Positions 2,929 through 61,038 of a stretch of 64,000 nt of DNA are shown one piece after another. Under the pieces are notes generated by a model that saw nothing but the letters and a program-made list of their open reading frames with translations, did no database searches and was not told the DNA's origin. The stretch's first letter is position 1. Every line of letters starts with the position of its first letter. This stretch comes from Escherichia coli (GTDB taxonomy: Bacteria; Pseudomonadota; Gammaproteobacteria; Enterobacterales; Enterobacteriaceae). Both the position numbers and the translations under genes were made by a program. The stretch is from the NCBI GenBank assembly GCA_029351405.1, contig GCA_029351405.1_4841.1; one strand, given 5' to 3'.

Positions 2929-3153
2929 TCAGCGTTTGAGGCTGGCGGCGAGTCCATTAACGTCGGTCACGGTCTGGTCAGCGAGGACGATTACAGGCAT
3001 CGACACGCGCGGCTTACCCGTCAACTGCTGAAGTTCTTCCAGCCGGTAATCTTTGTCCAGCTTGAGGATCTTGTGTTCCAGCCCTTTCATTTTGCACAGA
3101 TTTTCGGCTGTTACACACTGAGCGCAACCTTGTTTGGAATAGATCGTAATCAT
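2929..3153 (-). CDS. nrdH: glutaredoxin-like protein (NrdH/NrdC type)
   Basis: 74 aa; CAQC redox motif near N-terminus; immediately downstream of nrdB; SD AAAGGTGAG. Confidence 0.8.
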   Translation of the reverse strand: MITIYSKQGCAQCVTAENLCKMKGLEHKILKLDKDYRLEELQQLTGKPRVSMPVIVLADQTVTDVNGLAASLKR

Positions 3154-3162
3154 TTCTCACCT

Positions 3163-4266
3163 TTAAGCGAATTTGAGGCCATCGGATACCGAACCAGTCA
3201 GTACACCCATCAGATAATCAGGAGCTTCCGCTTCCTGCAACGCGTACTGCATTGCCTTATTATCTAGCCAGTCATTAATCCATGGAACTGGGTTCTCCTT
3301 GCGAGGTTCACCGGGATATGGGTGCCCGATAGCGCCCATCCGGTGGGTTGCCAGCCAGTCTACCATCTGATGAAGGATCTTGGCGTTCAGCCCCAGGATG
3401 GAACCGTCTTTGAACAGGTAGTTCGCCCACTCCTTCTCTTGATGAACCACGTCCAGGAACATCTGGGTCATCTCACCACGCAGTTCCTCACGGATGATTG
3501 CAAAGTCGGGGTCCATACCAGGCAGGCGGTTTAGTAGCGTCTGGGTCAGTATCAGGTGATCCTGCTCATCACGGGCGATCTGTCGAATGATTTTGGCATT
3601 GCCTTCCATCTTCTTCTGGAACTGTGTGAATGCCCAAGAGCACGCAAAGGACACGTAGAAGCGGATGCCTTCCAGTGTGTTGGCAGCAAACAGAGCACGC
3701 CAGAATGCGCGTTTGGCATTCATCAGATCTTCTCGGGTGAAGATGCGTCCGGCCATACGCATGCCACTGTACTGTACCATGTCATCGTAGTACACACTGA
3801 TCTGGTGAGCACAGTCCACGATCTCTGCAACATCCAGTACATGGTCAAACACGATACCTGGATCGTTCACAGTGTTGCGCAAAATGTGGGTGTACGATAA
3901 AGAGTGAATGGCTTCCTGGCGCGTCCATTCAAGGACAGCAAACTGCATTTCAGGGGTAGACGCCCATGGACCAAACGCCTCGAAAGGAGCCGCACCCTGG
4001 ATAGAGTCCAGCATGGTCTGGCGCTTCAGGTTGCTGAAGTAGACATGTTTCTCTGCTTCGTTCAGAGTAGCGAAGTCTGCCTTGTCCTTGGTGATGTCCA
4101 CCTCTTCAGGACGCCAGAATTGACTGAGACCTTTCTCATACCACTTCTGTACGAATGGCCAGGCCACGACATCGTAACGCTGGATGCTCACTGGGTCGCC
4201 GAAGAACGGTAGACCAGTGTTGTCCGAGCTTGGGTCGAATACGGAGAATTGTTTCTGTTCGCTCAT
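3163..4266 (-). CDS. nrdB: ribonucleotide reductase class Ia beta subunit
   Basis: 367 aa with R2-type di-iron sequence features; uninterrupted reading frame (no intron). Confidence 0.95.
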   Translation of the reverse strand: MSEQKQFSVFDPSSDNTGLPFFGDPVSIQRYDVVAWPFVQKWYEKGLSQFWRPEEVDITKDKADFATLNEAEKHVYFSNLKRQTMLDSIQGAAPFEAFGPWASTPEMQFAVLEWTRQEAIHSLSYTHILRNTVNDPGIVFDHVLDVAEIVDCAHQISVYYDDMVQYSGMRMAGRIFTREDLMNAKRAFWRALFAANTLEGIRFYVSFACSWAFTQFQKKMEGNAKIIRQIARDEQDHLILTQTLLNRLPGMDPDFAIIREELRGEMTQMFLDVVHQEKEWANYLFKDGSILGLNAKILHQMVDWLATHRMGAIGHPYPGEPRKENPVPWINDWLDNKAMQYALQEAEAPDYLMGVLTGSVSDGLKFA

Positions 4267-6619: not shown

Positions 6620-6702
6620 GGTGTTCCTCGGGTTTGTTTACGCAGGTTTTATTATACGCCGCCCTCATAGATTGAAGGCGGCAGGGAGGGTTGGCGGGTT
6701 AC

Positions 6703-7647: not shown

Positions 7648-8442
7648 TTAACTGAAACTCTTGTATGCTGCTGCGAGCTTCGTGTCGTACTGGTTCTTGG
7701 CATACGCCGGACCATTATAGCGCCGCGCAAACTCAGCCCAGTTCTTGTCCTTCAGAGCCTGCCAGAGCTTGGCGTCAGCCTTGATGAACTTCACGAATGC
7801 CATCAAATGAGCACGTTCTCCTGTCAGGAAGTCGTTGAACATCTCCTTGGCGTTGGCATATCCACAGACCTGGCAGTTGAATCCCATGATCTGGAAGAGA
7901 CCGTAAGAGGCGCTCTCGTACGCACAATCCTCGTCGATGTTGATCGCTGCATGAAGTCGATCCAACTCCGCGTCGCCGCCCGTGTACCCGCCTGCGGAAG
8001 GGCTGACCAACGTCGGGTACATATGTCCCATGGCATTCGCCCGAGCCTGTCCGAACTTCGCCATCAGCTTCTTATACATGATGTGGCGCTCAAATAATGT
8101 CTTGATCTTACCTGATTTGGTGAAGCCCGTGCCGCGCGACTCAACCTGATTCACCGCCTTGACAGAGGCAAGGTCAACACCCAGATCGTTAGCAGCATCA
8201 ATCAGGTCTGACTCAGTTAGATGATCCTGATGGGCGTCTCCGGCGTTGCGAATAGCATAGGAGGTCTTTGGACCCACGATACCATCAATGACAAGTCCCG
8301 CACCCGCCTGAACCGTCTTGACGGCGTTCTCTGTTACCTTGCCAAAGATACCATCAGCGACGAGGGTGAAGCCGATTTTGTTGAGGCTATTCTGAAGTGC
8401 CTTCACTTCAGTGCCACGGTTGCCAAGTTTTAGAATGGCCAT
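7648..8442 (-). CDS. endolysin (peptidoglycan-binding domain plus muramidase-like domain)
   Basis: PG_binding-like N-terminus (LKLGNRGTEVKALQ...); C-terminal FARRYNGP region; ATG at 8442 with SD GGAGG (ORF-track start at 8457 is GTG). Confidence 0.8.
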   Translation of the reverse strand: MAILKLGNRGTEVKALQNSLNKIGFTLVADGIFGKVTENAVKTVQAGAGLVIDGIVGPKTSYAIRNAGDAHQDHLTESDLIDAANDLGVDLASVKAVNQVESRGTGFTKSGKIKTLFERHIMYKKLMAKFGQARANAMGHMYPTLVSPSAGGYTGGDAELDRLHAAINIDEDCAYESASYGLFQIMGFNCQVCGYANAKEMFNDFLTGERAHLMAFVKFIKADAKLWQALKDKNWAEFARRYNGPAYAKNQYDTKLAAAYKSFS

Positions 8443-8471
8443 AAGAAATACCTCCACAATGAATGCAGAGG

Positions 8472-8479
8472 TATTTAAA
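8472..8479 (-). promoter_or_regulatory. candidate late promoter box (TTTAAATA)
   Basis: 30 nt upstream of the endolysin ATG; one mismatch to TATAAATA. Confidence 0.3.
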
Positions 8480-11595: not shown

Positions 11596-11617
11596 GATGT
11601 TGTCCTCAGAAAAAGAA

Positions 11618-11639
11618 ATCCCCCTGTATTTAGGGGGAT
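11618..11639 (-). terminator. stem-loop with U-tract carrying a CTAAATA box in its loop
   Basis: 7-bp stem (tcccccT / Aggggga) followed by UUUCUUUUUCU on the minus strand. Confidence 0.45.
11627..11633 (-). promoter_or_regulatory. candidate late promoter box CTAAATA
   Basis: 32 nt upstream of the 11595 start; same heptamer precedes gp18, gp19 and gp22. Confidence 0.4.
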
Positions 11640-11688
11640 CCAGTTACAGACCAAGTTCTTTCGTCGTGGCGTCGTCTAGTGCAACCTC

Positions 11689-16822: not shown

Positions 16823-17436
16823 TATCTTGTCCTCTTCAGTTTCTCTATCGTGTGCTTGTTCATGGCGATCACCCGAGGATCTACCTCGGAGATGGTCCGG
16901 CCTTTGAAGGACACACATTTCTGAAGATATTTAGCTTTCTTCACGACGTCAGCGGCATAAGCGTTCGATGCAGGATTACGGGCAAAGCCAGCATTGTAAG
17001 AGGAGAGGGATTTGCGGATATTCTGATTGTGATAGGTCAGCCAGAACTGCATCTCATCGAGGGCGGCTTGCGCGGCATATTCTTGGTCGGTCAGCAACTT
17101 TATGGCGACATTGGCATAGCACTTGCGATTCTTACAACCTTCGCGATCACCAACTGTCTTCACCTTGTTCTGAAAGGCTCCCATGTTGGCCGCCTTGAGG
17201 CCGTATCGCATTGACACTACATCTTCGCCAGCGCGGCTCTCACGCCAAGATATGGCGGCCAGAGTGTAGCCAAGATCTTGTGTCTTGCCCACGTGATAGG
17301 CGGTTGCCATCGTATTAAGTTGTTGCTCGGAGAAATTATAAACACATTGGCTTGTATTTTGGGAAGCGTGCACATTCCCGCTGGCAATGGTAAAGGTCAC
17401 GGACAAGGCCATGGCCTTCAACGTTGTCATCGTCAT
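16822..17436 (-). CDS. secreted protein with signal peptide, possibly lytic-transglycosylase-like
   Basis: N-terminal signal peptide (MTMTTLKAMALSVTFTIASGNVHA); WRESRAGED resembles the SLT catalytic region; SD AAGGAA. Confidence 0.55.
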   Translation of the reverse strand: MTMTTLKAMALSVTFTIASGNVHASQNTSQCVYNFSEQQLNTMATAYHVGKTQDLGYTLAAISWRESRAGEDVVSMRYGLKAANMGAFQNKVKTVGDREGCKNRKCYANVAIKLLTDQEYAAQAALDEMQFWLTYHNQNIRKSLSSYNAGFARNPASNAYAADVVKKAKYLQKCVSFKGRTISEVDPRVIAMNKHTIEKLKRTR

Positions 17437-20638: not shown

Positions 20639-21746
20639 CCAGTTTGTTCAGGCGTTGTTGGGCAGCATTATAGAAGTGCTCTGCCAGTTTACAGACGTTG
20701 TCGGGGCGCTGAATGTTGTTCCCGGCGCGGATATCCTTCTTCAGGACTTCCACCGCATCGGTCGCCACCATCTCTTCGGTGACCTCAACCTTCTCGGCAG
20801 CAACAGTAATCGTCCGGTCGATGAAGTTGTAGTCAATACACTTGCATCGCTTCATGGCATCACAGAACTTTTCATAATGCTTAGCATTGTCACGGTTCTG
20901 TACAATAACCTTAACGATTTGCCCTTCAATACCCAAGCCTGTGTTCAACCATTCCGGGTCGATCCAATTACCTTCTTCATCAGAGGACAACTTGGTGTAA
21001 TCATATTCCACATAGCGGAACAGCGTCTGGTGCTCGGCGTTCGGGATAAAGATCTCACCACCACGCATGTCGTCTACATAGAAGCCACGATTGGTCCCGT
21101 CTTTGTAGTCTTCCCAGTTCAGGTGATACGGAGTCCCAATATATTGAATGTTACCTTCCATCGAACGGGTATGGAAATGCCCCGTGTCGACCCTGGTAAA
21201 CTTGGAAAGCAGCGCAACGTCGATCTGACCGTGATCACAAGTAGAAGACTGGTACATTTTGAACCCCGCCAGCTCCAGATGCGCAAAACAGTACTCGGCG
21301 TCTGTATCCTGTATCGCTTTAATAGACGCATCATAGTTCTCCTTGTTGATCCAAGGCAGCAGCAGAGTCTTGACACCCTCGATCATCACTTCGGTCGGTT
21401 CGCTGTAATAGCAGTACACATCCGGGTCGAGTTCGTTCAGGTAGGATGGCCAGTTGATGCGGTTGGACTCTTCCAGGGTGATGTCATGGTTGCCCACGAT
21501 GCCATTCCACTTGATACCAGCCGCTTTCAACGCAGGGGTGAGTTCATCCTTCAGCCAGTCTTTGTCGCGCCCGTACATGAATTTGCGGACATCAAACGTA
21601 TCACCGAACTGCCAGACCTCTTTGATATCAGAGTCGGCAAGTTCAGGAATGAAATAATTGATGAGATAGTTCTTGATGAAGTCGCGAACGTATCGAGAAC
21701 CATTACGGCTCCCGATATGCAGATCGCCAATTTTAGCAATCGCCAT
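20631..21746 (-). CDS. gp47: recombination endonuclease subunit, T4 gp47-like (Mre11/SbcD family)
   Basis: 371 aa; phosphoesterase motifs GDLHIG, GNHD, GHFH. Confidence 0.9.
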   Translation of the reverse strand: MAIAKIGDLHIGSRNGSRYVRDFIKNYLINYFIPELADSDIKEVWQFGDTFDVRKFMYGRDKDWLKDELTPALKAAGIKWNGIVGNHDITLEESNRINWPSYLNELDPDVYCYYSEPTEVMIEGVKTLLLPWINKENYDASIKAIQDTDAEYCFAHLELAGFKMYQSSTCDHGQIDVALLSKFTRVDTGHFHTRSMEGNIQYIGTPYHLNWEDYKDGTNRGFYVDDMRGGEIFIPNAEHQTLFRYVEYDYTKLSSDEEGNWIDPEWLNTGLGIEGQIVKVIVQNRDNAKHYEKFCDAMKRCKCIDYNFIDRTITVAAEKVEVTEEMVATDAVEVLKKDIRAGNNIQRPDNVCKLAEHFYNAAQQRLNKLDA

Positions 21747-22524
21747 TGTTCTTTTTCTCCCGTTCTTCTAATCTTTGTTTGAGGGCTTCCCAATCTGGTT
21801 CCATCGCACAGATATCATCTTCCAGATTGAATTGGGTTTTGCCAAAGTCCTGATCTGAATTGTCTTCGGCCTGCGCTGTTACCGTATTCTTAGCCTGCGC
21901 CATGTATTGAAGTATGCCTTTCGCAATCTTTTTATTCGATTCTGCGAGACGAGCCGCCTCCACCTTCTCTCGTTCCTTTTGCCTTTGAGCGTCCTTTTTG
22001 TTCTCAAAGTTGCCGATACGTTCACGGAAGTCCATGCCAATTCCTGTAGCATCAACAAAGACCTCTTGTTGGAAGTCGGGATCGTCTGCCAGGCCTGCGA
22101 ACCCACCCGCCTCTTCAAATGAGCGCAATTTAATGTACGTGTGCTCTTCTTCGATGTTCAGTTTACGAGCAAATGATCGATCAGCACACATGGTCACCCA
22201 AGAGAAGAAGTTGATCTTCCCTTTCTTTCCAATGTGTTCGACGTCAAATGTGTGGAGGTAGCGCAAGATGTTGACTATTGCTTCAGAGACCATGTCTTCA
22301 CGGAAGGGATAGTCGCGATAGTTGTAGCGGGTGCTCATCTTGGTGATGATGCGCTGGACCTGTAGAGCAACATAGTTGGGGATCTTTGGAAGCCTGGTGC
22401 CTTCAGCTAGAGCCTTCTTACGAGCAGGGATCCAATCACGCAGGATGCTGATGACACGCTCGTTATCTTCGTCTGTGAAATATTTGACGACATTCTCCCC
22501 TCTGTCCACGAAGTTCATTCCCAT
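21733..22524 (-). CDS. gp55: late-transcription sigma factor, T4 gp55-like
   Basis: 263 aa; aligns with T4 gp55 (DW...HTFD region); T4 synteny 55-47-46. Confidence 0.8.
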   Translation of the reverse strand: MGMNFVDRGENVVKYFTDEDNERVISILRDWIPARKKALAEGTRLPKIPNYVALQVQRIITKMSTRYNYRDYPFREDMVSEAIVNILRYLHTFDVEHIGKKGKINFFSWVTMCADRSFARKLNIEEEHTYIKLRSFEEAGGFAGLADDPDFQQEVFVDATGIGMDFRERIGNFENKKDAQRQKEREKVEAARLAESNKKIAKGILQYMAQAKNTVTAQAEDNSDQDFGKTQFNLEDDICAMEPDWEALKQRLEEREKKNNGDC

Positions 22525-41469: not shown

Positions 41470-42459
41470 TCACTTCCACTTGATGTTGAGCATGACATTG
41501 GTCAGGAAAAACACAGCATGCAACCAGACATCGCCGACTTGGCGGTGTTCAATCTGAGACTGACCACATACGCACACCAGATCAGGGATAGACTCATTCT
41601 GAACCAACATTTGCTTCTCTTTATCCTGTGGCACACAGAACTGGAAGAAGCGGGAATAGAAGTCTTCAGTGATATAGTTCTGGTTGTCGGTCACCCACTG
41701 CTTCATCCCAGCCCAGTCATTATCCTTCAACATATTCACCAACATGCCCATATCGGCCGATTTTAACACAGCCAGTGCACGTTCGTCGATCTTGCCGTAA
41801 GTGGTGACGTTATCCTGTAGAACACCCATGATGCGGCGGTTATCAGGGAAATGGCGCTTGACAATAGCAGCCAACACAGGAGGGTCATACTCAACACCTT
41901 CGCTGCGAAGGATTTCAGCACAGCGGCGCATGAACTGAAGTTTGACCTCATCAGCCTCAGTCTCATTCCAGATAAAGTCGATTTCACGGCAACGAGAGCG
42001 CAGAGGTTCGTTCACACGTTGCTTGGCGTTGGTGGTCAGGATGAATGAACAGTTCTTGGAGACCTTCTCCACAATACCCTTCAGCGACTCCTGCGCCGCC
42101 ATAGACAGACGCTCTACTTCGTCGAGGATAACGACTTTGCGACCACCGAATACACTCACACCAGTAGAGTACTGAATCACGCGGTCACGGATAACGTCGA
42201 TACTGTTGTCCAGGGATGCGTTGATCATCAGTGGTTGCTTACAACCGATCTCGTTACACACAGCCAGGGCGGAGGTAGTCTTGCCAGTACCAGGCTGAGG
42301 GGAGTAGAACAGCATAGACGGGATGTTACCGTTGCCGCTGGTGATGTAGCCATGGATTTTAGCGCGGACGTCTTGAGGGATGATAATCTCGTCCAGGTTG
42401 TCAGGGCGGAAACGGTTCTCCCAGGCGTACTGGTCTTTTACAATCGTGATATTAGACAT
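41470..42459 (-). CDS. gp44: clamp loader large subunit, T4 gp44-like (AAA+ RFC family)
   Basis: 329 aa; Walker A SPQPGTGKTT; SRC-like motif; aligns with T4 gp44. Confidence 0.9.
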   Translation of the reverse strand: MSNITIVKDQYAWENRFRPDNLDEIIIPQDVRAKIHGYITSGNGNIPSMLFYSPQPGTGKTTSALAVCNEIGCKQPLMINASLDNSIDVIRDRVIQYSTGVSVFGGRKVVILDEVERLSMAAQESLKGIVEKVSKNCSFILTTNAKQRVNEPLRSRCREIDFIWNETEADEVKLQFMRRCAEILRSEGVEYDPPVLAAIVKRHFPDNRRIMGVLQDNVTTYGKIDERALAVLKSADMGMLVNMLKDNDWAGMKQWVTDNQNYITEDFYSRFFQFCVPQDKEKQMLVQNESIPDLVCVCGQSQIEHRQVGDVWLHAVFFLTNVMLNIKWK

Positions 42460-43115
42460 TATGTATTTCCATGATATAGTTTACAGAACAGAACCCAAGC
42501 GTCGTCATCATACGGGTTCCAGCCCTCTTTGAATTTGTTTAACATACTCGTTGCGGTGTTCTCTTTAATAGAGAACAAACGGGCAATTCTATGGCACCCA
42601 TCACCAGTAGAAACCCAGTGATCATACACTACCCCAGCCTTTAACCACATCGGTCTGGTGTTGTGTAGCAGCGCAGCCCCGGTGTCCCAGGGTTTTATTC
42701 CTGCGGCGGGGTGGCTTTTACCAGTTCTTCCGTGCATGGGATGAAGATTCCCAGACTTGCCCTTCAACCAACTCGAGACACCAACTCGGTGATGTTTAGG
42801 TCCCGCTGACCTACCGTTGGCGATACCACAACCCCGTGGCTGAAATGATTTGTTTAAACATTTTGGGTGATCAATGTTCTCACTAATCAACTGCTGCTCT
42901 CTCCAATATGCTTCTTCTGGGGAGTCAAACAGTTCTACGAATTCTACATCAAAGAAATCAGAACCTTTCTTAGATATGATTTCCTTGACTGTTTGTGAAG
43001 AAGTGAAATATGAAGTGAACAATTGTAAAGGATGTGCACCCAATTTCGTTCTAGAACCAAAATAGAAAGAACCATCCTTCCCTAACAAATGATATACAAA
43101 CGGTTGGTTCCTCAT
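42459..43115 (-). CDS. GIY-YIG homing endonuclease (seg-like) with NUMOD3-type repeats
   Basis: VYHLL ... FYFGSR GIY-YIG motifs, 10-aa spacing; C-terminal KGKSGNLHPMHGRTGKSHP repeats; inserted between gp45 and gp44; start at 43115 or 43139. Confidence 0.7.
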   Translation of the reverse strand: MRNQPFVYHLLGKDGSFYFGSRTKLGAHPLQLFTSYFTSSQTVKEIISKKGSDFFDVEFVELFDSPEEAYWREQQLISENIDHPKCLNKSFQPRGCGIANGRSAGPKHHRVGVSSWLKGKSGNLHPMHGRTGKSHPAAGIKPWDTGAALLHNTRPMWLKAGVVYDHWVSTGDGCHRIARLFSIKENTATSMLNKFKEGWNPYDDDAWVLFCKLYHGNT

Positions 43116-43147
43116 TTCAGCCTCGTGTAGAAGAATCATTTCAAATA

Positions 43148-43166
43148 GGCGGGGAACTCCCCCGCC
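43148..43166 (-). repeat. GC-rich leader stem-loop (ggcgggg-aactc-ccccgcc), family member
   Basis: 7-bp stem followed by TATTTGAAATG, as in the 30662 and 31223 copies. Confidence 0.4.
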
Positions 43167-43196
43167 CACACATTATAGCATCAGGCTGGAGATTGA

Positions 43197-43865
43197 TTAC
43201 TCAATCTGTGCGCCGACGAAGTAATTGATCGTCGCGTCGGATGATTGGAAGTTCACCATCTGTAGATCAGCACATGCACGCAGAGTGTAGTTGCCTTCGA
43301 TCATTTTCAGGTTGGCAACATCCAGCGGCATTACGAAGTCCGGCAGCGCGGTTTCGCCCAGCTCAACAGTGTAATTGTTGGAGTTGTCCAGGGTAGTGGT
43401 GGTTGCAACCAGGCGTGTTTTGCCACCCTGAGCAACCAGACGCACAGTCTTATGTCCTAGGGTAGAGCAGGCGCGGGTCAGTTCTTTCATCTTCTCTGGA
43501 GTGATGATCGCTTCAAAATCGACAGACGGCAGTTCAATGGTGTCAGCCGGAACAACAGTGAGTTCTTTAGCAGAACGCCAGAATTGCAGCTGAGAGCTTT
43601 CGCCTTTCAACAGGATGTAGTCCTGATGGAATTCGGCTTTGGCACCTTTGAAGGAAGGTAGGCGCTGGATGGCCAGAAGTTTGGTCAGGTCCAGAATCGG
43701 GAACTCAAACGGGAAGTCTTCTTCGATCTGCGCCACGGCGATCACAGTAGAAGAATCATTAATACTGCGCAGCATCTTGCCCGGTGTCAGAACGATAGAT
43801 GGGTTGATGGTCTCAAAGTTGGCCAGCAACTGAAGTGTACGTTCAGAGAGAGTGATCTCTTGCAT
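43197..43865 (-). CDS. gp45: sliding clamp, T4 gp45-like
   Basis: 222 aa; N-terminal region aligns with T4 gp45; SD GAGGA. Confidence 0.9.
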   Translation of the reverse strand: MQEITLSERTLQLLANFETINPSIVLTPGKMLRSINDSSTVIAVAQIEEDFPFEFPILDLTKLLAIQRLPSFKGAKAEFHQDYILLKGESSQLQFWRSAKELTVVPADTIELPSVDFEAIITPEKMKELTRACSTLGHKTVRLVAQGGKTRLVATTTTLDNSNNYTVELGETALPDFVMPLDVANLKMIEGNYTLRACADLQMVNFQSSDATINYFVGAQIE

Positions 43866-44207: not shown

Positions 44208-44552
44208 ATGAAACAGTTCGTAGGATTATACGCAGTTGGGTGTAGTAAGCCAGACGCCAACACCCCAGTTTATCTGACACAGCTGGCGTCAGACAAGAAC
44301 TTACCATCGGAACCGCGATTTGTCCCCCTTGGCTTGATGACAGGCCTGAAAGTTGGTCTGTATGTCGGCGTTGTGACGTTTGAAAACGGCATCGAAGCGA
44401 AGGTTCTGCCATTCAAATTGGGTAGTGAACAAATGCTGAAGGATACGATCAGTGAACACCTGAACTCACAATGTCTGGCTTCTCTGGATAAATTGTTCGG
44501 CGTAGTATCTGATGAAGGCGAGGCCACCCCCGCCTATGTGAATCAAGATTAA
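44208..44552 (+). CDS. hypothetical protein (plus strand)
   Basis: 114-aa ORF after a 342-bp AT-rich intergenic region; SD GAGAG. Confidence 0.5.
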   Translation: MKQFVGLYAVGCSKPDANTPVYLTQLASDKNLPSEPRFVPLGLMTGLKVGLYVGVVTFENGIEAKVLPFKLGSEQMLKDTISEHLNSQCLASLDKLFGVVSDEGEATPAYVNQD

Positions 44553-46057
44553 TCGTGATTACCCAGCGCCACCTTCATGAACTCCACAGGGTGGCGCTCT
44601 GCCAGGTAAAACTTGTAACGCTCATGAGAGTGCCTAAGAGCGTGGTTCGTGCTGGCGTTATACGATGCATCATCAACTAAGTCCCATATCCACGCAACGT
44701 CCTTAGAGGAGTGCTGACGCATCAGACGACCCAATGTCTGTATGACGCGGATATATGACTTGCTCGGGTGTGCCAGTACAAGGTGGTGCAGCTTCTTGAT
44801 TGACACACCCTGCTGCATTGTTCCGTATGATGCTAACAGGGTGATGTCCTCTCCATCCTCCATCGCTTTCTGTATGCGACGGCGGTCTTCTATCTTCACT
44901 TCCCCGTTGATGACAAACACGTTGGGCTTGACTGCGCTCAGCATATCATACACGACCATCATGTGACCATCAATACGCTCGAACATGATGGCCACGTTTC
45001 CTTTCAGATTCAGTGCCATCTTGGCGATCAGTTCGTTGCGGGACTGGTGTGTAATAAGGTATTCTATTTCCTTGGAATAATCCCCGTCCAGACCAACGGC
45101 ATCCGCCGGAGTGTGCTTCAGCTGAATCATCTTCACTTTGATGTCAGTGGCGTACCCGAGATTGATAAGGTCGCGAGCCGTGATGATCTTATGGTACGCC
45201 CCGAAGTGAGCCACCACCTGAAGCCCGGCAACTTTGGTGTTCGCCAGCGTACCTGTAACCCCCAGGCGCTGGTCGGCATAGATGCAGTTGTTTAGGATGT
45301 AAGACAGTTTATCAGACTTGGAGGTGTGCACTTCGTCCACCACGATATCACCGAACTGGTGGAACCATTCCTTCGGCTGGTCTTGAATGCCTTGCCATGT
45401 ACTGATGACGATTGGTTTGCTGATCTCCTTTGTCGCGCCCTCAAAAATCAGCTGGGTGTTAGCAACGGGCTTCCAATCACTGCCATGAGCATACTCTTCG
45501 AAGTTGTCGTACAGCTGAGTGACTAGGTGGATTGACGGCACCACGATAAGCGTCTTCAGAGGACTTTCGAGAGCTTCTCTGCGCCGCCTGTAGTACCGCG
45601 CCATGACATACAGAATAAAGGACTTACCGGCACTCGTAGCCAGTTCACAGACGCATCTGGTTTGACGCATAGCCTTGGCGATGGTGTCGTACTGGTAGTC
45701 ACGAGTCTCGGCATCGATATATTCGTGATTTTCGGTGCGGATCTTTGGATGCAGACTGTCGATGAAGTCACGGATTTCTTCATCTGGGATTTCCTGAATG
45801 TACTTCAGTGTCGGATCCAGTTCAATTGTGTATCCGTTGTTCTTACAGAACTTAAATACCTCAAACAGCAGACCGATATCGATTAGACCAGATGACTTGG
45901 TAAATAGGCGGACAACCCCGTCCCATTTAGAGAAGGGGTTGGGAACGAAGTTCGGGTCTTCGAATTTGAAGTAATCATTAAGTTCTTCCCTGATAGAAAG
46001 ATCTGCGATGCAACGCATGCGGACTTCGTTAACCTTAACAATCTGAATGTCTGCCAT
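44549..46057 (-). CDS. uvsW: UvsW-like SF2 helicase
   Basis: N-terminus and NLHHLVLAH motif align with T4 UvsW; Walker A TSAGKS, DEVH box; ATG at 46057 with SD GGGAGA. Confidence 0.85.
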   Translation of the reverse strand: MADIQIVKVNEVRMRCIADLSIREELNDYFKFEDPNFVPNPFSKWDGVVRLFTKSSGLIDIGLLFEVFKFCKNNGYTIELDPTLKYIQEIPDEEIRDFIDSLHPKIRTENHEYIDAETRDYQYDTIAKAMRQTRCVCELATSAGKSFILYVMARYYRRRREALESPLKTLIVVPSIHLVTQLYDNFEEYAHGSDWKPVANTQLIFEGATKEISKPIVISTWQGIQDQPKEWFHQFGDIVVDEVHTSKSDKLSYILNNCIYADQRLGVTGTLANTKVAGLQVVAHFGAYHKIITARDLINLGYATDIKVKMIQLKHTPADAVGLDGDYSKEIEYLITHQSRNELIAKMALNLKGNVAIMFERIDGHMMVVYDMLSAVKPNVFVINGEVKIEDRRRIQKAMEDGEDITLLASYGTMQQGVSIKKLHHLVLAHPSKSYIRVIQTLGRLMRQHSSKDVAWIWDLVDDASYNASTNHALRHSHERYKFYLAERHPVEFMKVALGNHD

Positions 46058-46085
46058 ACAAAATCTCCCAAGGATTATGGGGTAT

Positions 46086-46832
46086 TTAGTGATCCGGCCA
46101 GACTCCGTTTTGTTCTTTATCCATGCGATGATACAGACGAACACGCTCAAACATCTTTGTCAGAATGTCATCACGGTTGAACTCAATGATGGTTGGTAGA
46201 GGGGAAGACTCGTTGGCAATCACGTTGATGAGGCGGGTGATCTTGACACCGAACATCTGCTGGAACATGACCGAATATAAACACAGCTGGATACTGTAAT
46301 CCTCGATCATGCCCCGCGTCTTCATAGTGTTCGATGTCTTGAAGTCGATGACAGCAGGTTTACCCTCATAAACCCCGATAAGGTCTACACGACCTGCAAG
46401 ACCAAGCACCTCGCTATATAATGGGATCTCCTGAGCATAGATCTTTGTCATCTTGTTCAGGTAAGGGAACAGCTGCTTGAACATGAACATGTATTCGCCA
46501 GCCGCTTCCAACACTTCTTTCATTGGGCGGTTCTTTAGATACAGTTCACACGCAAGGTGCAGCTTCTCCCCTCGGTCAGCACAGCGCATGGTCTCAAGAT
46601 CAGCGGCCTCTGCGCCCAGCTTCTTCCTCCAAGACTCAAGCCATTCATGATCTCCAGTGCGTCCCAGCATAGTCGTGACGGATGTCAGTTTAACACCAGA
46701 CGGTGAAACGTAATGACGACCATTCTCCGTCGTAACACACTCCAGTTCCTTGTAAGGAAGTTCGTATTGCTGGAATGTGTAATGACGGTTTTCGAAGTCA
46801 TTCAGCTTGCGTAGATCCTGGAGAGATGCCAT
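46086..46832 (-). CDS. PD-(D/E)xK nuclease-like protein
   Basis: 248 aa; GRVDLIGVYEGKPAVIDFK motif; SD GAGGAT. Confidence 0.55.
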   Translation of the reverse strand: MASLQDLRKLNDFENRHYTFQQYELPYKELECVTTENGRHYVSPSGVKLTSVTTMLGRTGDHEWLESWRKKLGAEAADLETMRCADRGEKLHLACELYLKNRPMKEVLEAAGEYMFMFKQLFPYLNKMTKIYAQEIPLYSEVLGLAGRVDLIGVYEGKPAVIDFKTSNTMKTRGMIEDYSIQLCLYSVMFQQMFGVKITRLINVIANESSPLPTIIEFNRDDILTKMFERVRLYHRMDKEQNGVWPDH

Positions 46833-48522: not shown

Positions 48523-49251
48523 TTACTTCAGCGCGTTCTTCAGATTATCGGAACCGATGCTGTTGATGACACCTCCGGCGCAGATATCTTTCGCCCACTC
48601 TGAGATCACGTTGGCGAAAGAGAAGTTAAGACACTTACCAACCATGTCTTGGATATGGGCTAACTCTGCTGCAATACCGTTCGTGATGTCCTGAGCAATA
48701 GAGGCTACTGATGCGACAGCAGTGTCGATGGCCTGAGTAACTTCAGCGGCCAGTGCCTGAATAGCATCAAGACCAGCACTGACACCCTGAGCTACCAACT
48801 CAGCCAGCTCATTCATCTTGTTTGTGATAGTTGTGAGAACACTTTGCATTGTGTTGATCCACTGTTTGCCGAGGTTCTGAATAACCCCAAATGCATTATT
48901 GATCAGATCACAGTTGTTCGGTTCTCGACCTATAGACTTCAGGGCGGACTTATACGACACAGATGTACCGATGCGGGAATATGCCTCGTTCACTGACTGG
49001 TAGCCATAGTTGTTCAAAGTAGTGATGCTGTCGTTGGCTGAGTTGAACATTGCTGTAGATTCGTTGAGTTTGGCTGTAGTCAACCCACCTGCCGTCAGCG
49101 CTTCCTGAATCTGCGTATTTCCGGTGTTAGCCAGTGACGCTGTAGTCGCCTTACCACTGGTGATTAACCCCTGTGAGGCGCTGCTGAGGGACGGGAGAGG
49201 ATTGGTAAAGGCGTTGCCCTGCGATAGGGCGTCATAGATCTGTGCGTTCAT
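48523..49251 (-). CDS. hypothetical late protein
   Basis: 242 aa, Ser/Thr/Ala/Asn-rich; no SD outside the upstream hairpin; CTAAATA box upstream. Confidence 0.6.
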   Translation of the reverse strand: MNAQIYDALSQGNAFTNPLPSLSSASQGLITSGKATTASLANTGNTQIQEALTAGGLTTAKLNESTAMFNSANDSITTLNNYGYQSVNEAYSRIGTSVSYKSALKSIGREPNNCDLINNAFGVIQNLGKQWINTMQSVLTTITNKMNELAELVAQGVSAGLDAIQALAAEVTQAIDTAVASVASIAQDITNGIAAELAHIQDMVGKCLNFSFANVISEWAKDICAGGVINSIGSDNLKNALK

Positions 49252-49260
49252 AAGAAAATA

Positions 49261-49279
49261 CCCCCATGGATGATGGGGG
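49261..49279 (-). promoter_or_regulatory. stem-loop that sequesters the probable SD of the 48523-49251 gene
   Basis: 7-bp stem cccccat / atggggg; the G-run is the only SD-like sequence, 9 nt from the ATG. Confidence 0.4.
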
Positions 49280-49280
49280 G

Positions 49281-49287
49281 TATTTAG
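49281..49287 (-). promoter_or_regulatory. candidate late promoter box CTAAATA
   Basis: Heptamer immediately 5' of the hairpin, 30 nt upstream of the ATG. Confidence 0.4.
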
Positions 49288-49290
49288 GGA

Positions 49291-49461
49291 TCATGGTAGT
49301 TTGTAAACGAAGTTGGACCAGAACTTACGAACAAACTTCTTGACATAAACCATTCGGTTGGCGTATTCCCCATCCTTCAGGTCATTGTAGGTCTCGATCC
49401 CTACCGCGCCCAAGAAGTACGCCGTGAAGATATAGCAGAACAGATTGATGACGACAAACAT
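49291..49461 (-). CDS. small membrane protein (56 aa), not in the ORF track
   Basis: ATG with SD GGAGATACATC; hydrophobic N-terminus MFVVINLFCYIFTAYFLGAV; translated by hand. Confidence 0.45.
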   Translation of the reverse strand: MFVVINLFCYIFTAYFLGAVGIETYNDLKDGEYANRMVYVKKFVRKFWSNFVYKLP

Positions 49462-49502
49462 GATGTATCTCCGCTGTGTGTACTCAAATTATTTATGATA
49501 TG

Positions 49503-51382: not shown

Positions 51383-51441
51383 GACACAGCCCTCGGTAGT
51401 AGACGGGGCAATAATACCTCTCACCCCGTTATTGAAAACTG

Positions 51442-51642
51442 TTATCCTTCTTGTTCTTCCCAACCCCATTCATCTTCCCAAGACTGGCGAGGGGTCTTGC
51501 CCGCTTCGTAATCATCACGCCAGGCGTCGGCGTCGGCGGCTGAACCGCCCTGGCTTTTCGCGACTTTGCACAATACGTCGTGCCACTCACGGAAAGTGGA
51601 GTTGGCGACTGTGGTGTTTACAGAATCTTCTTTCAGGCTCAT
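51442..51642 (-). CDS. small acidic protein
   Basis: 66 aa from the ATG at 51642 with SD GAGGAAA; Trp/Glu-rich C-terminus. Confidence 0.5.
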   Translation of the reverse strand: MSLKEDSVNTTVANSTFREWHDVLCKVAKSQGGSAADADAWRDDYEAGKTPRQSWEDEWGWEEQEG

Positions 51643-51664
51643 TGTGATTTCCTCGATTAATAGA

Positions 51665-51682
51665 GAGGGTAATAATACCCTC
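51665..51682 (-). repeat. leader stem-loop (gagggta-ataa-taccctc), family member
   Basis: 7-bp stem upstream of the 51642 RBS. Confidence 0.35.
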
Positions 51683-51701
51683 ATGCAATCTTTGAAACTC
51701 T

Positions 51702-52034
51702 TTATCCAGCCAAAGTCATATTCTGGGAACCAACCCCATCTTCACATTCTGGATGACATGAAGTGCCCAGTTTTTCATGGATCACATCCAGATGGGTAAA
51801 GATAGCGTCGATGATATCGTCTTGGTCAGACTGGACGTCAATCACCAAGCCGACCAGACCAGGCGCGGCCATTTCTTTATCTTCACCTTTCTGAGCGGTT
51901 GGGTAATCACCGTCGAGTTGGATACGGATGTTTCTGATATTAGTAAGGAGGTTGCACAAACGCTCTTTATGAGAACGAGCATTGACCAAGATTTGGGACA
52001 CGGATTGTGTTGGTGATACGAGGTTGCTTGACAT
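51702..52034 (-). CDS. hypothetical protein
   Basis: 110 aa; SD ACAGGAG lies in the 3' arm of an 11-bp inverted repeat. Confidence 0.55.
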   Translation of the reverse strand: MSSNLVSPTQSVSQILVNARSHKERLCNLLTNIRNIRIQLDGDYPTAQKGEDKEMAAPGLVGLVIDVQSDQDDIIDAIFTHLDVIHEKLGTSCHPECEDGVGSQNMTLAG

Positions 52035-52044
52035 GATTTATACT

Positions 52045-52080
52045 CCTGTTGTATGGTTGACCGTACAAGCATACAACAGG
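52045..52080 (-). repeat. perfect 11-bp inverted repeat (cctgttgtatg / catacaacagg), 14-nt loop, overlapping the SD of the 51702-52034 gene
   Basis: Arms at 52045-52055 and 52070-52080; no U-tract, so not a simple terminator. Confidence 0.6.
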
Positions 52081-52126
52081 CAGGTGTATTGAACAACGCG
52101 GGTATTAAATCGACACGATAAAGGAA

Positions 52127-61031: not shown

Positions 61032-61038
61032 TATTTAG
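61032..61038 (-). promoter_or_regulatory. late promoter box CTAAATA upstream of gp18
   Basis: tcaCTAAATAtc 43 nt upstream of the ATG. Confidence 0.5.

What the first reader, a model, noticed from the sequence alone, without database searches (positions are those of the whole stretch)
49259..49290. Late promoter box next to a hairpin that sequesters the only Shine-Dalgarno of a late gene
Upstream of the 48523-49251 gene the minus strand reads CCCTAAATA-CCCCCCAT-CATCC-ATGGGGG-UAUUUUCUU-AUG. The G-run that would act as SD is paired in a 7-bp stem, and the CTAAATA box lies immediately 5' of the stem, so a transcript started from that box would begin inside the 5' arm and leave the SD free, whereas read-through transcripts would hide it. 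This is the logic known for T4 late genes such as e. A similar arrangement (box inside a terminator hairpin) is at 11618-11639.
Basis: partly seen in the sequence, partly recalled or inferred. Interest (0 to 1): 0.5.

Follow-up and report, generated by a model that had tools for sequence, protein, structure and literature searches.

The report
Late promoter nested in SD-masking hairpin
A 39-base gap between two phage genes packs a late-promoter box, a terminator-like RNA hairpin and the next gene's only ribosome-binding site so that, by prediction, only transcripts started at that promoter expose the site; this is the classic phage T4 lysozyme-gene trick, reused many times in a different phage family.

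Summary
On the minus strand, 49252-49290 reads tcc-CTAAATA-CCCCCC-AT-catcc-AT-GGGGG-TATTTTCTT before the ATG of gene 48523-49251. The stem is longer than reported: 12 pairs, AAAUACCCCC(C)AU with AUGGGGGUAUUU.

The window is an Ackermannviridae (ViI-like) phage. CTAAATAcCcc is that family's published hallmark motif. The gene encodes a DUF7217 protein whose LIMEstone1 orthologue was found in virions.

- **Conservation:** the hairpin, the SD inside it, the U-rich tail and the abutting upstream stop codon are kept in seven genera. All 115 alignment cells pair, and three pairs show changes on both sides.
- **Energetics:** opening the SD costs about 15-16 kcal/mol on a long leader and about 5-7 on a leader starting at the T4-type +1.
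- **Recurrence:** the design recurs at nine or more late-type genes, including the endolysin at 8440-8479. In every case the SD pairs with the five bases after TAAATA (promoter -5 to -1).
- **Precedent:** a T-even lysozyme (gene e) leader has the same composite.

Best reading: a T4 gene-e-type element that also looks like an intrinsic terminator. No transcript or translation data exist. It is a new member of a known kind, of moderate interest.

The parts
49291..49461 (-). Upstream co-directional 56-aa ORF, a small hydrophobic-N-terminus protein (phrog_4845). Its TGA stop (49291-49293) lies 5 nt before the hairpin.
   Evidence: The ORF and its abutting stop are conserved in all genera examined, and it is present but unannotated in Bue1.
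49281..49287 (-). CTAAATA box, a putative gp55-type late promoter -10 element. With the next four C it forms CTAAATACCCC (49277-49287), the ViI-like hallmark motif.
   Evidence: TAAATA is invariant in 10 orthologues.
49275..49280 (-). C-run, the anti-SD. It occupies promoter positions about -5 to -1/+1 under T4 spacing, so it is transcribed only on RNAs started upstream.
49273..49285 (-). 5' arm of the hairpin (AAAUACCCCCCAU).
49268..49272 (-). Loop (CAUCC). It varies in sequence and length among genera.
49256..49267 (-). 3' arm of the hairpin (AUGGGGGUAUUU).
49261..49265 (-). GGGGG, the only Shine-Dalgarno candidate, 9 nt before the AUG and fully paired in the hairpin.
   Evidence: Menlow annotators placed the RBS inside the annotated terminator.
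49252..49260 (-). UAUUUUCUU, a U-rich tail (terminator-like) that doubles as the SD-AUG spacer.
48523..49251 (-). Regulated gene: a 242-aa DUF7217 protein (phrog_2114). Its LIMEstone1 orthologue is a mass-spectrometry-confirmed virion protein.
49490..49497 (-). CATAAATA box 28 nt before the 56-aa ORF, a possible late promoter for the upstream transcript. It is not conserved in Taipeivirus or Miltonvirus.
8440..8479 (-). Sibling element before the endolysin gene (7648-8442): TTTAAATA, CCUCU(G) anti-SD, loop, GGAGG SD, UAUUUCUU, AUG.
46055..46089 (-). Weaker sibling before the UvsW-type helicase gene: CTAAATACCCC ... GGGAG AUUUUGU AUG.
11617..11640 (-). Terminator hairpin with CTAAATA in its loop. 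The SD lies outside the hairpin, so this is promoter-in-terminator only.
   Evidence: (Ag3 Torf105)
21733..22524 (-). gp55-type late sigma factor gene, the machinery expected to read the box.
   Evidence: phrog_234, E = 3e-52
51411..52093 (-). Stretch bounded by two sigma70-like TTCAAT-N14-TAnnnT promoters (52068-52093 and 51411-51436) facing the hairpin. They are candidate sources of read-through transcripts.

Best explanation
The 39-nt spacer is a composite regulatory element of the T4 gene-e type.

On the DNA, TAAATA is the -10-like box of a gp55-dependent late promoter. The five to six C that follow it lie at about -5 to -1.

On any RNA started upstream, the box and C-run are transcribed and pair with GGGGGUAUUU. 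Such RNAs could come from the presumed early sigma70-like promoters at 52093 and 51436, or from the box at 49495. The resulting 12-bp hairpin, followed by UAUUUUCUU, should terminate many of these transcripts. On those that read through, it buries the only SD of the DUF7217 virion-protein gene.

RNA started at the element's own promoter begins at the last C or first A of the 5' arm. It lacks the anti-SD, cannot form the terminator or mask, and is translated.

What is shown: the sequence anatomy, its conservation and covariation, the predicted energies, the recurrence of the design, and the presence of the late sigma gene. What is inferred: promoter activity, the start site, termination, and differential translation.
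For: - **Anatomy:** confirmed by direct reading and folding.
- **Known motif:** CTAAATAcCcc is a published family hallmark and this site is listed in EspM4VN. CTAAATA is enriched 9 versus 3.3, and the boxes at 61037, 58288 and 54748 lie 26-42 nt upstream of the tail sheath, tail tube and scaffold genes.
- **Machinery:** gp55-like sigma and gp45-like clamp genes are in the window.
- **Late status:** the LIMEstone1 orthologue (ORF129, listed as 25.03 kDa; the sequence computes to 25.02 kDa) is a virion protein by mass spectrometry.
- **Conservation:** in 10 distinct orthologous spacers from seven genera, all 115 cells pair. Three pairs change on both sides. No shuffle of 500 reaches the observed pairing or covariation score, and slid controls pair at 38-60%.
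- **Energetics:** SD opening costs 12-19.5 kcal/mol on long leaders and 2.4-9.2 on short ones across orthologues. The T-even gene e leader gives 13.9 versus 1.4.
- **Predicted start:** the sixth base after the box is a purine in 7 of 9 orthologues.
- **Recurrence:** at nine sites (endolysin, tailspikes, neck protein and others) the SD core pairs with box offsets +1 to +5. At the weak UvsW site one partner is offset -1. The arms differ between sites: CCCC:GGGG, CCUCU:GGAGG, CCUUC:GAGGG, UCCUC:GAGGA.
- **Statistics:** 19 EspM4VN genes with a box have more SD masking than 111 without (p = 1.2e-4). They also show more relief on truncation at the predicted start (p = 6.8e-5; 9/19 versus 16/111 gain at least 5 kcal/mol, p = 0.002).
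- **Strand:** most stems contain 1-2 G-U pairs, which fits an RNA of the sense strand rather than a DNA palindrome.
- **Precedent:** the T4 cases are documented, and the same composite sits before a T4-lysozyme homologue.
Against: - No transcript 5' ends, RNA-seq or translation data for any Ackermannviridae phage were found.
- The -5 to -1 segment is C-rich, whereas T4 late promoters are AT-rich there. This could weaken promoter opening, and it means promoter activity cannot be taken for granted.
- The short leader is not fully free. A G-U-rich alternative pairing of GGGGG with UUCUU still costs 5-9 kcal/mol in some orthologues.
- If the hairpin terminates efficiently, read-through RNAs may be too rare for SD masking to matter.
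- The upstream ORF has its own late-type box in several genera, so the contrast may not be early versus late.
- A ribosome terminating 5 nt upstream of the stem could partly melt it.
- Eight of the 12 pairs never vary, and the covariation rests mainly on two divergent genera (Bue1 and phiMAM1).
Confidence: 0.65

Rival explanations
1. The hairpin is simply an intrinsic terminator ending the upstream transcription unit, with a late promoter packed against it to save space. The SD sits in the 3' arm by compaction, and masking has no regulatory consequence.
For: - It has a GC-rich stem, a 5-nt loop and a tail with 7 U in 9, directly after a co-directional stop codon.
- The consensus scan picks it up.
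- It is annotated as a terminator in KWBSE43-6 (ARNOLD, -14.7) and Menlow.
- The U-rich tail is kept in all genera.
- The sibling at 11617-11640 is a terminator with a box but no SD inside.
Against: - Sibling sites with the same box/anti-SD/SD register have 11-21-nt loops or no U-tract, so they are poor terminators. Examples are EspM4VN 65378, 70605 and 53620.
- The exact +1 to +5 register at nine sites is not needed for termination.
- No alternative SD exists in any orthologue.
- The two functions are compatible, so this is a rival only in its 'nothing but a terminator' form.
Confidence: 0.2
2. Translational coupling. On polycistronic RNA the hairpin is opened by ribosomes finishing the 56-aa ORF, so the DUF7217 protein is made in proportion to translation of the small ORF. 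The box is not the main source of translated mRNA.
For: - The stop codon lies 0-8 nt before the stem in every genus, and overlaps the box in Bue1 (TAATAAATA).
- Several sibling sites also sit 2-12 nt after a co-directional stop.
Against: - By the usual ribosome footprint (own knowledge: about 9 nt beyond the stop codon), a terminating ribosome here would open only the A-U base of the stem. The 7-bp CCCCCAU:AUGGGGG core would remain.
- EspM4VN 82415 has no close co-directional upstream ORF, and at the window endolysin site the nearest upstream stop noted lies about 150 nt from the box.
- It does not explain why the anti-SD always occupies box +1 to +5.
Confidence: 0.1
3. A DNA-level inverted repeat (a protein-binding site or cruciform affecting promoter opening), or a chance palindrome.
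For: The arms are an inverted repeat that includes the box itself. GATC is enriched just upstream of boxes.
Against: - Spacing between the arms varies from 4 to 21 nt among sites and genera.
- Stems contain G-U pairs that would be A-C mismatches on the other strand.
- The 3' arm is always the SD at a fixed distance from a start codon.
- Conservation and covariation argue against chance.
Confidence: 0.03

Closest known systems
Phage T4 gene e (lysozyme) leader (McPheeters et al. 1986, as reviewed in PMC3014915)
   Same: A late-promoter box lies in the DNA that encodes the 5' strand of a hairpin burying the SD. Long (early) transcripts are poorly translated, about 100-fold less, while transcripts from the late promoter lack the 5' strand. 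A T-even lysozyme leader fetched here reads AATAAATA-CCCCU-auauaa-GGGGGUAU-u-AUG, the same box + C-run / G-run SD composite in the same register.
   Different: The phage family differs (Ackermannviridae), and so does the gene (a DUF7217 virion protein, not a lysin). The box is CTAAATA rather than TATAAATA. A longer U-rich tail gives full terminator anatomy. A co-directional ORF stops 5 nt upstream. None of this has been tested experimentally here.
T4-type homing-endonuclease and other hairpins (I-TevI, I-TevII/III, segB, Aeh1 mobE, soc, gene 49)
   Same: The RBS is sequestered on early or middle read-through RNA, and a late promoter is placed so that late RNA cannot form the structure.
   Different: Those are individual cases with unrelated sequences. 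Here one fixed sequence solution (TAAATA + pyrimidine anti-SD, SD + UAU) is reused at many genes.
ViI-like / Ackermannviridae hallmark motif CTAAATAcCcc
   Same: The finding is one listed instance of this motif (EspM4VN positions 98591-98601).
   Different: The papers I could read treat it only as a conserved regulatory motif. I found no statement that its C-rich tail pairs with the downstream SD. The original 'Viunalikevirus' paper could not be read, so this may have been noted there.
Rho-independent terminators with embedded promoters in ViI-like genomes (Ag3 Torf098, Torf105, Torf069/Porf067)
   Same: A hairpin plus T-run overlaps a promoter element. The endolysin sibling and the 11617-11640 site appear in the Ag3 terminator list.
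   Different: The Ag3 list does not include the orf175/orf174 spacer, and it does not connect these terminators with promoters or SD masking.

Membership tests
T4-type (gp55-dependent) late promoter | 8-bp TATAAATA-like box about one helical turn upstream of the start (-13 to -6), with no -35 element | tested here: met
   CCTAAATA matches 6 of 8 positions. TAAATA is invariant in 10 orthologues, while position 2 varies (C, T, A). Numbering is from PMC2988020.
T4-type (gp55-dependent) late promoter | The genome encodes gp55 late sigma, gp33 and the gp45 clamp | tested here: met
   gp55-like at 21733-22524 (phrog_234, 3e-52) and gp45-like at 43197-43865 (phrog_223). gp33 was not looked for in the window; homologues of all three are reported for Ag3.
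T4-type (gp55-dependent) late promoter | AT-rich segment immediately downstream of the box | tested here: not met
   The segment is CCCCC(C) here. T4 is AT-rich there. Boxes before the tail tube, sheath and scaffold genes are AT-rich.
T4-type (gp55-dependent) late promoter | Mapped late transcript 5' end about 6 nt after the box | not testable with these tools
   No transcriptome of an Ackermannviridae phage was found.
T4 gene-e-type SD-sequestering leader | SD and/or AUG base-paired in a stable helix on the long transcript | tested here: met
   GGGGG is fully paired. Opening it costs 15-16 kcal/mol.
T4 gene-e-type SD-sequestering leader | The late promoter lies in DNA encoding the 5' strand, so late RNA lacks it | tested here: met
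   The SD's partners are box offsets +1 to +5, and the predicted +1 is at 49275/49274. The cost drops to 5-7 kcal/mol. This rests on T4 spacing, not on mapped ends.
T4 gene-e-type SD-sequestering leader | Upstream-initiated transcripts read into the element | tested here: inconclusive
   A co-directional ORF ends 5 nt before the stem. Sigma70-like promoters at 52093 and 51436 face it, with no strong terminator between them and the hairpin. There are no RNA data.
T4 gene-e-type SD-sequestering leader | Lower translation from long RNA than from short RNA | not testable with these tools
   This needs reporter or toeprint assays.
Intrinsic (rho-independent) terminator | GC-rich stem, 3-8-nt loop, U-rich tail, downstream of a co-directional gene | tested here: met
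   The core stem has 7 pairs (5 G-C), the loop is 5 nt, and the tail is UAUUUUCUU. It is annotated as a terminator in KWBSE43-6 and Menlow.
Intrinsic (rho-independent) terminator | Transcripts end in the U-tract | not testable with these tools
   This needs 3'-end mapping or in vitro transcription.
ViI-like hallmark motif CTAAATAcCcc | Exact 11-mer in an intergenic position upstream of a gene | tested here: met
   CTAAATACCCC lies at 49287-49277. The orthologous EspM4VN site is listed in PMC7283392.

The most novel reading that the evidence does not exclude
The C-rich tail of the family's hallmark motif CTAAATAcCcc is an anti-Shine-Dalgarno sequence, not a promoter determinant. Ackermannviridae, and T4-like phages more widely, would then use a genome-wide grammar. 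Promoters of both classes (late TAAATA boxes, and sigma70-like TTCAAT-N14-TATAAT promoters such as 52093) are nested in hairpins whose 3' arm carries the next gene's SD. Each such gene would be translated only from RNA started at its own promoter. That would insulate transcription units translationally, even among co-transcribed late genes such as the tailspikes, rather than merely separating early from late.
Probability: 0.4. Interest if true: 0.55.

Novelty: new member of a known kind. Interest (0 to 1): 0.4.

Why it matters
- It gives a concrete, testable meaning to a motif that has served only as a taxonomic hallmark of ViI-like phages. The 'cCcc' tail would be an anti-SD.
- It shows that the T4 lysozyme-leader device extends beyond T-even phages: a whole family reuses it with one fixed sequence solution. 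The genes include the endolysin and the tailspikes, which matter for phage therapy and engineering.
- It has practical consequences for annotation and engineering:
  - These elements are inconsistently annotated, as terminators or as an RBS inside a terminator.
  - Homopolymer length changes in the arms cause wrong start-codon calls, as in fGh-Ecl02.
  - Anyone placing these genes behind a foreign promoter would carry the mask along and get little protein.

Tried and rejected
- **Literature searches that led nowhere:**
  - 'CTAAATA' alone was far too general.
  - The 'Viunalikevirus' paper (PMC4174289) is not held.
  - No Ackermannviridae transcriptome or RNA-seq paper was found.
- **Rfam:** no family matches anywhere in the window at gathering score.
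- **Stop-codon read-through fusion of the 56-aa ORF and DUF7217:** the two are in frame in the window. I rejected this because C/G-run length differences put them out of frame in close relatives such as Ag3 (38-nt spacer).
- **An upstream in-frame start inside the hairpin:** fGh-Ecl02 is annotated this way, and EspM4VN has an in-frame ATG there. I rejected it because the frame is not conserved and no in-frame start exists in the window.
- **DNA-level palindrome or protein site:** rejected on variable arm spacing and G-U pairs.
- **IMG/VR scan for TAAATACCCC-N3-30-GGGGTAT:**
  - It cannot be used for statistics.
  - It did yield the T-even lysozyme leader, head-tail adaptor genes of marine T4-like contigs and Kuttervirus tailspike sites.
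- **Felixounavirus-type homologue (SUSP1):** the gene sits among tRNA genes with no such element.

Full report
**1. The observation.**
The minus strand between the stop of ORF 49291-49461 and the ATG at 49251 reads tcc-CTAAATA-CCCCCC-AT-CATCC-AT-GGGGG-TATTTTCTT. The stem is longer than reported. The box's AAAUA pairs with the UAUUU that follows the G-run, giving about 12 pairs with one bulged C. The 61-nt segment folds at -16.2 kcal/mol, z = -2.85, and 3 of 200 shuffles fold as well. The GGGGG run holds the only G residues in the spacer, so it is the only possible SD.

**2. What the window is.**
The region is 90-98% identical to Ackermannviridae (ViI-like) phages such as AV101, fGh-Ecl02 and Ag3.
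- The downstream gene (48523-49251) encodes a 242-aa DUF7217 / phrog_2114 protein. Its LIMEstone1 orthologue computes to 25.02 kDa. That matches ORF129, listed as a 25.03-kDa 'unknown structural protein' confirmed in virions by mass spectrometry. The 'late gene' label is therefore reasonable.
- The upstream ORF encodes a 56-aa protein with a hydrophobic N-terminus.
- The window itself encodes a gp55-type late sigma factor (21733-22524) and a gp45-type clamp (43197-43865).

**3. The box.**
CTAAATAcCcc is a published 'unique regulatory motif' of these phages. The EspM4VN paper lists positions 98591-98601, which is this very site, 24 nt before the orthologous gene.

In the window CTAAATA occurs 9 times against 3.3 expected, and 8 of the 9 are on the minus strand, the strand carrying every late-type gene examined here. 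TAAATA boxes lie 24-42 nt before the tail sheath, tail tube, scaffold, endolysin, UvsW-helicase and other genes.

In T4 the TATAAATA box spans -13 to -6. That puts the +1 at the sixth base after the box, here 49275 (C) or 49274 (A). In 7 of 9 orthologues that base is a purine.

**4. Conservation of the hairpin.**
I compared orthologous spacers from Agtrevirus, Limestonevirus, Kuttervirus (CBA120), Taipeivirus, the IME250 lineage, Miltonvirus (phiMAM1) and Nezavisimistyvirus (Bue1). All keep the same order: stop codon, NTAAATA, pyrimidine run, variable stem top and loop, G-run, UAUUUU(C/A/U)UU, AUG.

On a 10-sequence alignment:

| Measure | Result |
|---|---|
| Cells forming standard pairs | 115 of 115 |
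| Pairs that never vary | 8 of 12 |
| Pairs with changes on both sides | 3 (C-G to U-A; A-U to G-C; U-A to C-G or A-U) |
| Shuffles reaching the observed pairing or covariation score | 0 of 500 |
| Pairing when the 3' partner is slid 1-3 columns | 38-60% |

The covariation comes mainly from Bue1 and phiMAM1, so it is real but thin. Close relatives differ in the length of the C and G runs (6/5, 5/5, 5/4, 4/5). This shifts the reading frame, which shows the spacer is non-coding.

**5. Energetics.**
Opening the SD costs 14.5-16 kcal/mol on leaders that start anywhere upstream of the box. It costs 5-7 kcal/mol on leaders starting at 49276-49274. Across orthologues the figures are 12-19.5 versus 2.4-9.2. 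The residual cost comes from a G-U-rich alternative pairing of GGGGG with the UUCUU tail, so the short leader is more open but not fully free.

**6. The design recurs.**
I surveyed the window and 99.5 kb of the related phage EspM4VN. The same composite precedes all of the following genes:
- the endolysin (window 8440-8479; PG_binding_1 + muramidase);
- two tailspike/tail-fibre genes;
- a neck/head-closure gene;
- gene_90, gene_72 and gene_105;
- more weakly, the UvsW helicase gene (46055-46089).

At all nine sites the SD core pairs with the bases at offsets +1 to +5 after TAAATA (the weak UvsW site has one partner at offset -1). The arms differ between sites: CCCC:GGGG, CCUCU:GGAGG, CCUUC:GAGGG, UCCUC:GAGGA. 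Loops range from 4 to 21 nt with unrelated sequences. These are therefore not copies of one repeat. They are one solution reached at different genes.

Comparing 19 EspM4VN genes that have a box with 111 that do not:

| Measure | With box | Without box | p |
|---|---|---|---|
| Median cost of opening the SD region | 8.0 kcal/mol | 4.8 kcal/mol | 1.2e-4 |
| Median relief on truncation at the predicted start | 5.0 kcal/mol | 1.1 kcal/mol | 6.8e-5 |
| Genes gaining at least 5 kcal/mol | 9 of 19 | 16 of 111 | 0.002 |

Boxes before the most abundant structural genes (tail tube, sheath, scaffold) have AT-rich downstream segments and no mask. The endolysin element is conserved in Kuttervirus, Taipeivirus and Miltonvirus. 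In Miltonvirus the arms are changed but still complementary (CCCUCUG:CAGAGGG).

**7. The T4 precedent is the same sequence solution.**
Reviews document that T4 genes e, soc, 49, I-TevI and others have their SD or AUG buried on long transcripts. They also document late promoters lying in the DNA for the 5' strand, with a 100-fold effect for gene e.

A 170.8-kb T-even contig found by pattern scan carries ggauaAUAAAUA-CCCCU-auauaa-GGGGGUAU-u-AUG in front of a T4-lysozyme homologue (MNIFEMLRIDEG...). Its register is identical, and its predicted costs are 13.9 versus 1.4 kcal/mol.

**8. Terminator and other readings.**
This particular copy also has full intrinsic-terminator anatomy: a short loop, a GC-rich core and 7 U in the 9-nt tail.
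- The consensus scan detects it.
- It is annotated as a terminator in KWBSE43-6 and Menlow. In Menlow the RBS is annotated inside the terminator.
- Two sigma70-like TTCAAT-N14-TAnnnT promoters at 52093 and 51436 face it, with no strong terminator between them and the hairpin.

It is therefore plausibly the end of an early unit. Termination and masking act in the same direction, and a transcript started at the box escapes both.

Because several siblings lack a U-tract or have long loops, masking rather than termination is the shared feature. Two caveats limit a strictly early-versus-late reading:
- The 56-aa ORF has its own CATAAATA box at 49490-49497 in Agtrevirus, Limestonevirus and Kuttervirus, though not in Taipeivirus or Miltonvirus.
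- The tailspike siblings follow other late genes.

The effect may therefore be 'own promoter only' translation.

A ribosome stopping 5 nt before the stem could partly open it, which would give translational coupling. By the usual footprint (own knowledge) it would not reach the 7-bp core.

**9. What is known and what is new.**
Already in the literature or in records:
- the mechanism (T4);
- the motif (ViI-like hallmark);
- scattered terminator and RBS annotations.

In the papers I could read, I did not find the link between them: that the motif's C-rich tail is the anti-SD of the following gene, reused in a fixed register at many genes including the endolysin. The founding 'Viunalikevirus' paper was not available.

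One difference from T4 needs an experiment. The -5 to -1 segment is C-rich, whereas T4 late promoters are AT-rich there.

**10. Verdict.**
It is a new member of a known kind, of moderate interest. Nothing here measures transcription starts, termination or translation.

Noticed in passing
window 8440-8479 (-), gene 7648-8442: The endolysin gene (PG_binding_1 + N-acetylmuramidase) carries the same composite: TTTAAATA, CCUCU anti-SD, GGAGG SD, UAUUUCUU, AUG. Predicted SD opening costs 16.9 kcal/mol on the long leader and 4.1 on the short one. It is conserved in Kuttervirus, Taipeivirus (annotated there as a terminator) and Miltonvirus. It is the functional counterpart of T4 gene e.
   Followed up: yes
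window 11617-11640 (-): A terminator hairpin (GATCCCCCT/AGGGGGATT plus a T-run) has CTAAATA in its loop. The predicted start falls in the 3' arm, and the SD (GAGGA) lies outside. The Ag3 paper lists it as terminator Torf105.
   Followed up: partly
window 52068-52093, 51411-51436, about 6650-6700 (-): Sigma70-like TTCAAT-N14-TAnnnT promoters (the family's other hallmark motif) are also nested in hairpins. At 52093 the -10 lies in the 5' arm/loop and the SD AGGAG lies in the 3' arm. At 51436 the -10 is in the loop. At 6676 the -35 is in a terminator loop. The logic matches the late boxes. EspM4VN shows more cases (39521, 54821, 8887, 95318).
   Followed up: partly
window 61037, 49286, 46088, 11632 (-), 958 (+): GATC lies within 10 nt upstream of TAAATA at 5 of 23 sites, against a 3.9% background. 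It could be an upstream promoter element or related to Dam sites. It is unexplained.
   Followed up: partly
window 49261-49280; L001 (fGh-Ecl02) 3024-3794; L017 (EspM4VN) about 45590-45626: The C-run and G-run vary in length among close relatives (6/5, 5/5, 5/4, 4/5). This changes the frame and has led to a CDS wrongly extended through the hairpin in fGh-Ecl02. In EspM4VN it creates an in-frame ATG inside the hairpin.
   Followed up: partly
L013 (Erwinia phage Bue1) about 470-665: The conserved small membrane-protein ORF upstream of the hairpin is present but not annotated in the Bue1 record. Its TAATAA stops overlap the late box.
   Followed up: partly
window 46055-46089 (-), gene 44549-46057: A CTAAATACCCC box with a weak mask precedes the UvsW-type helicase gene. 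In EspM4VN this gene is annotated as two CDSs (gene_137 and gene_138).
   Followed up: no
window 42459-43169 (-): A homing-endonuclease-like ORF sits between the sliding-clamp gene (43197-43865) and the clamp-loader gene (41470-42459).
   Followed up: no
L138 (EspM4VN record 16886-16920), outside the window: Two divergent late-type boxes are each other's reverse complement (CCTAAATAG...CTATTTAGG). They lie between the gp48-side baseplate gene and the gp4 head-completion gene, so either transcript could form the same hairpin.
   Followed up: no
L132, L075, L024, L117 (IMG/VR contigs of 9-10 kb): Contigs carrying a head-tail adaptor (phrog_211) gene have a perfect TATAAATA box followed by CCCC, with GGGGUAUUUUU-AUG downstream. 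The same composite therefore occurs outside Ackermannviridae and T-even phages.
   Followed up: partly
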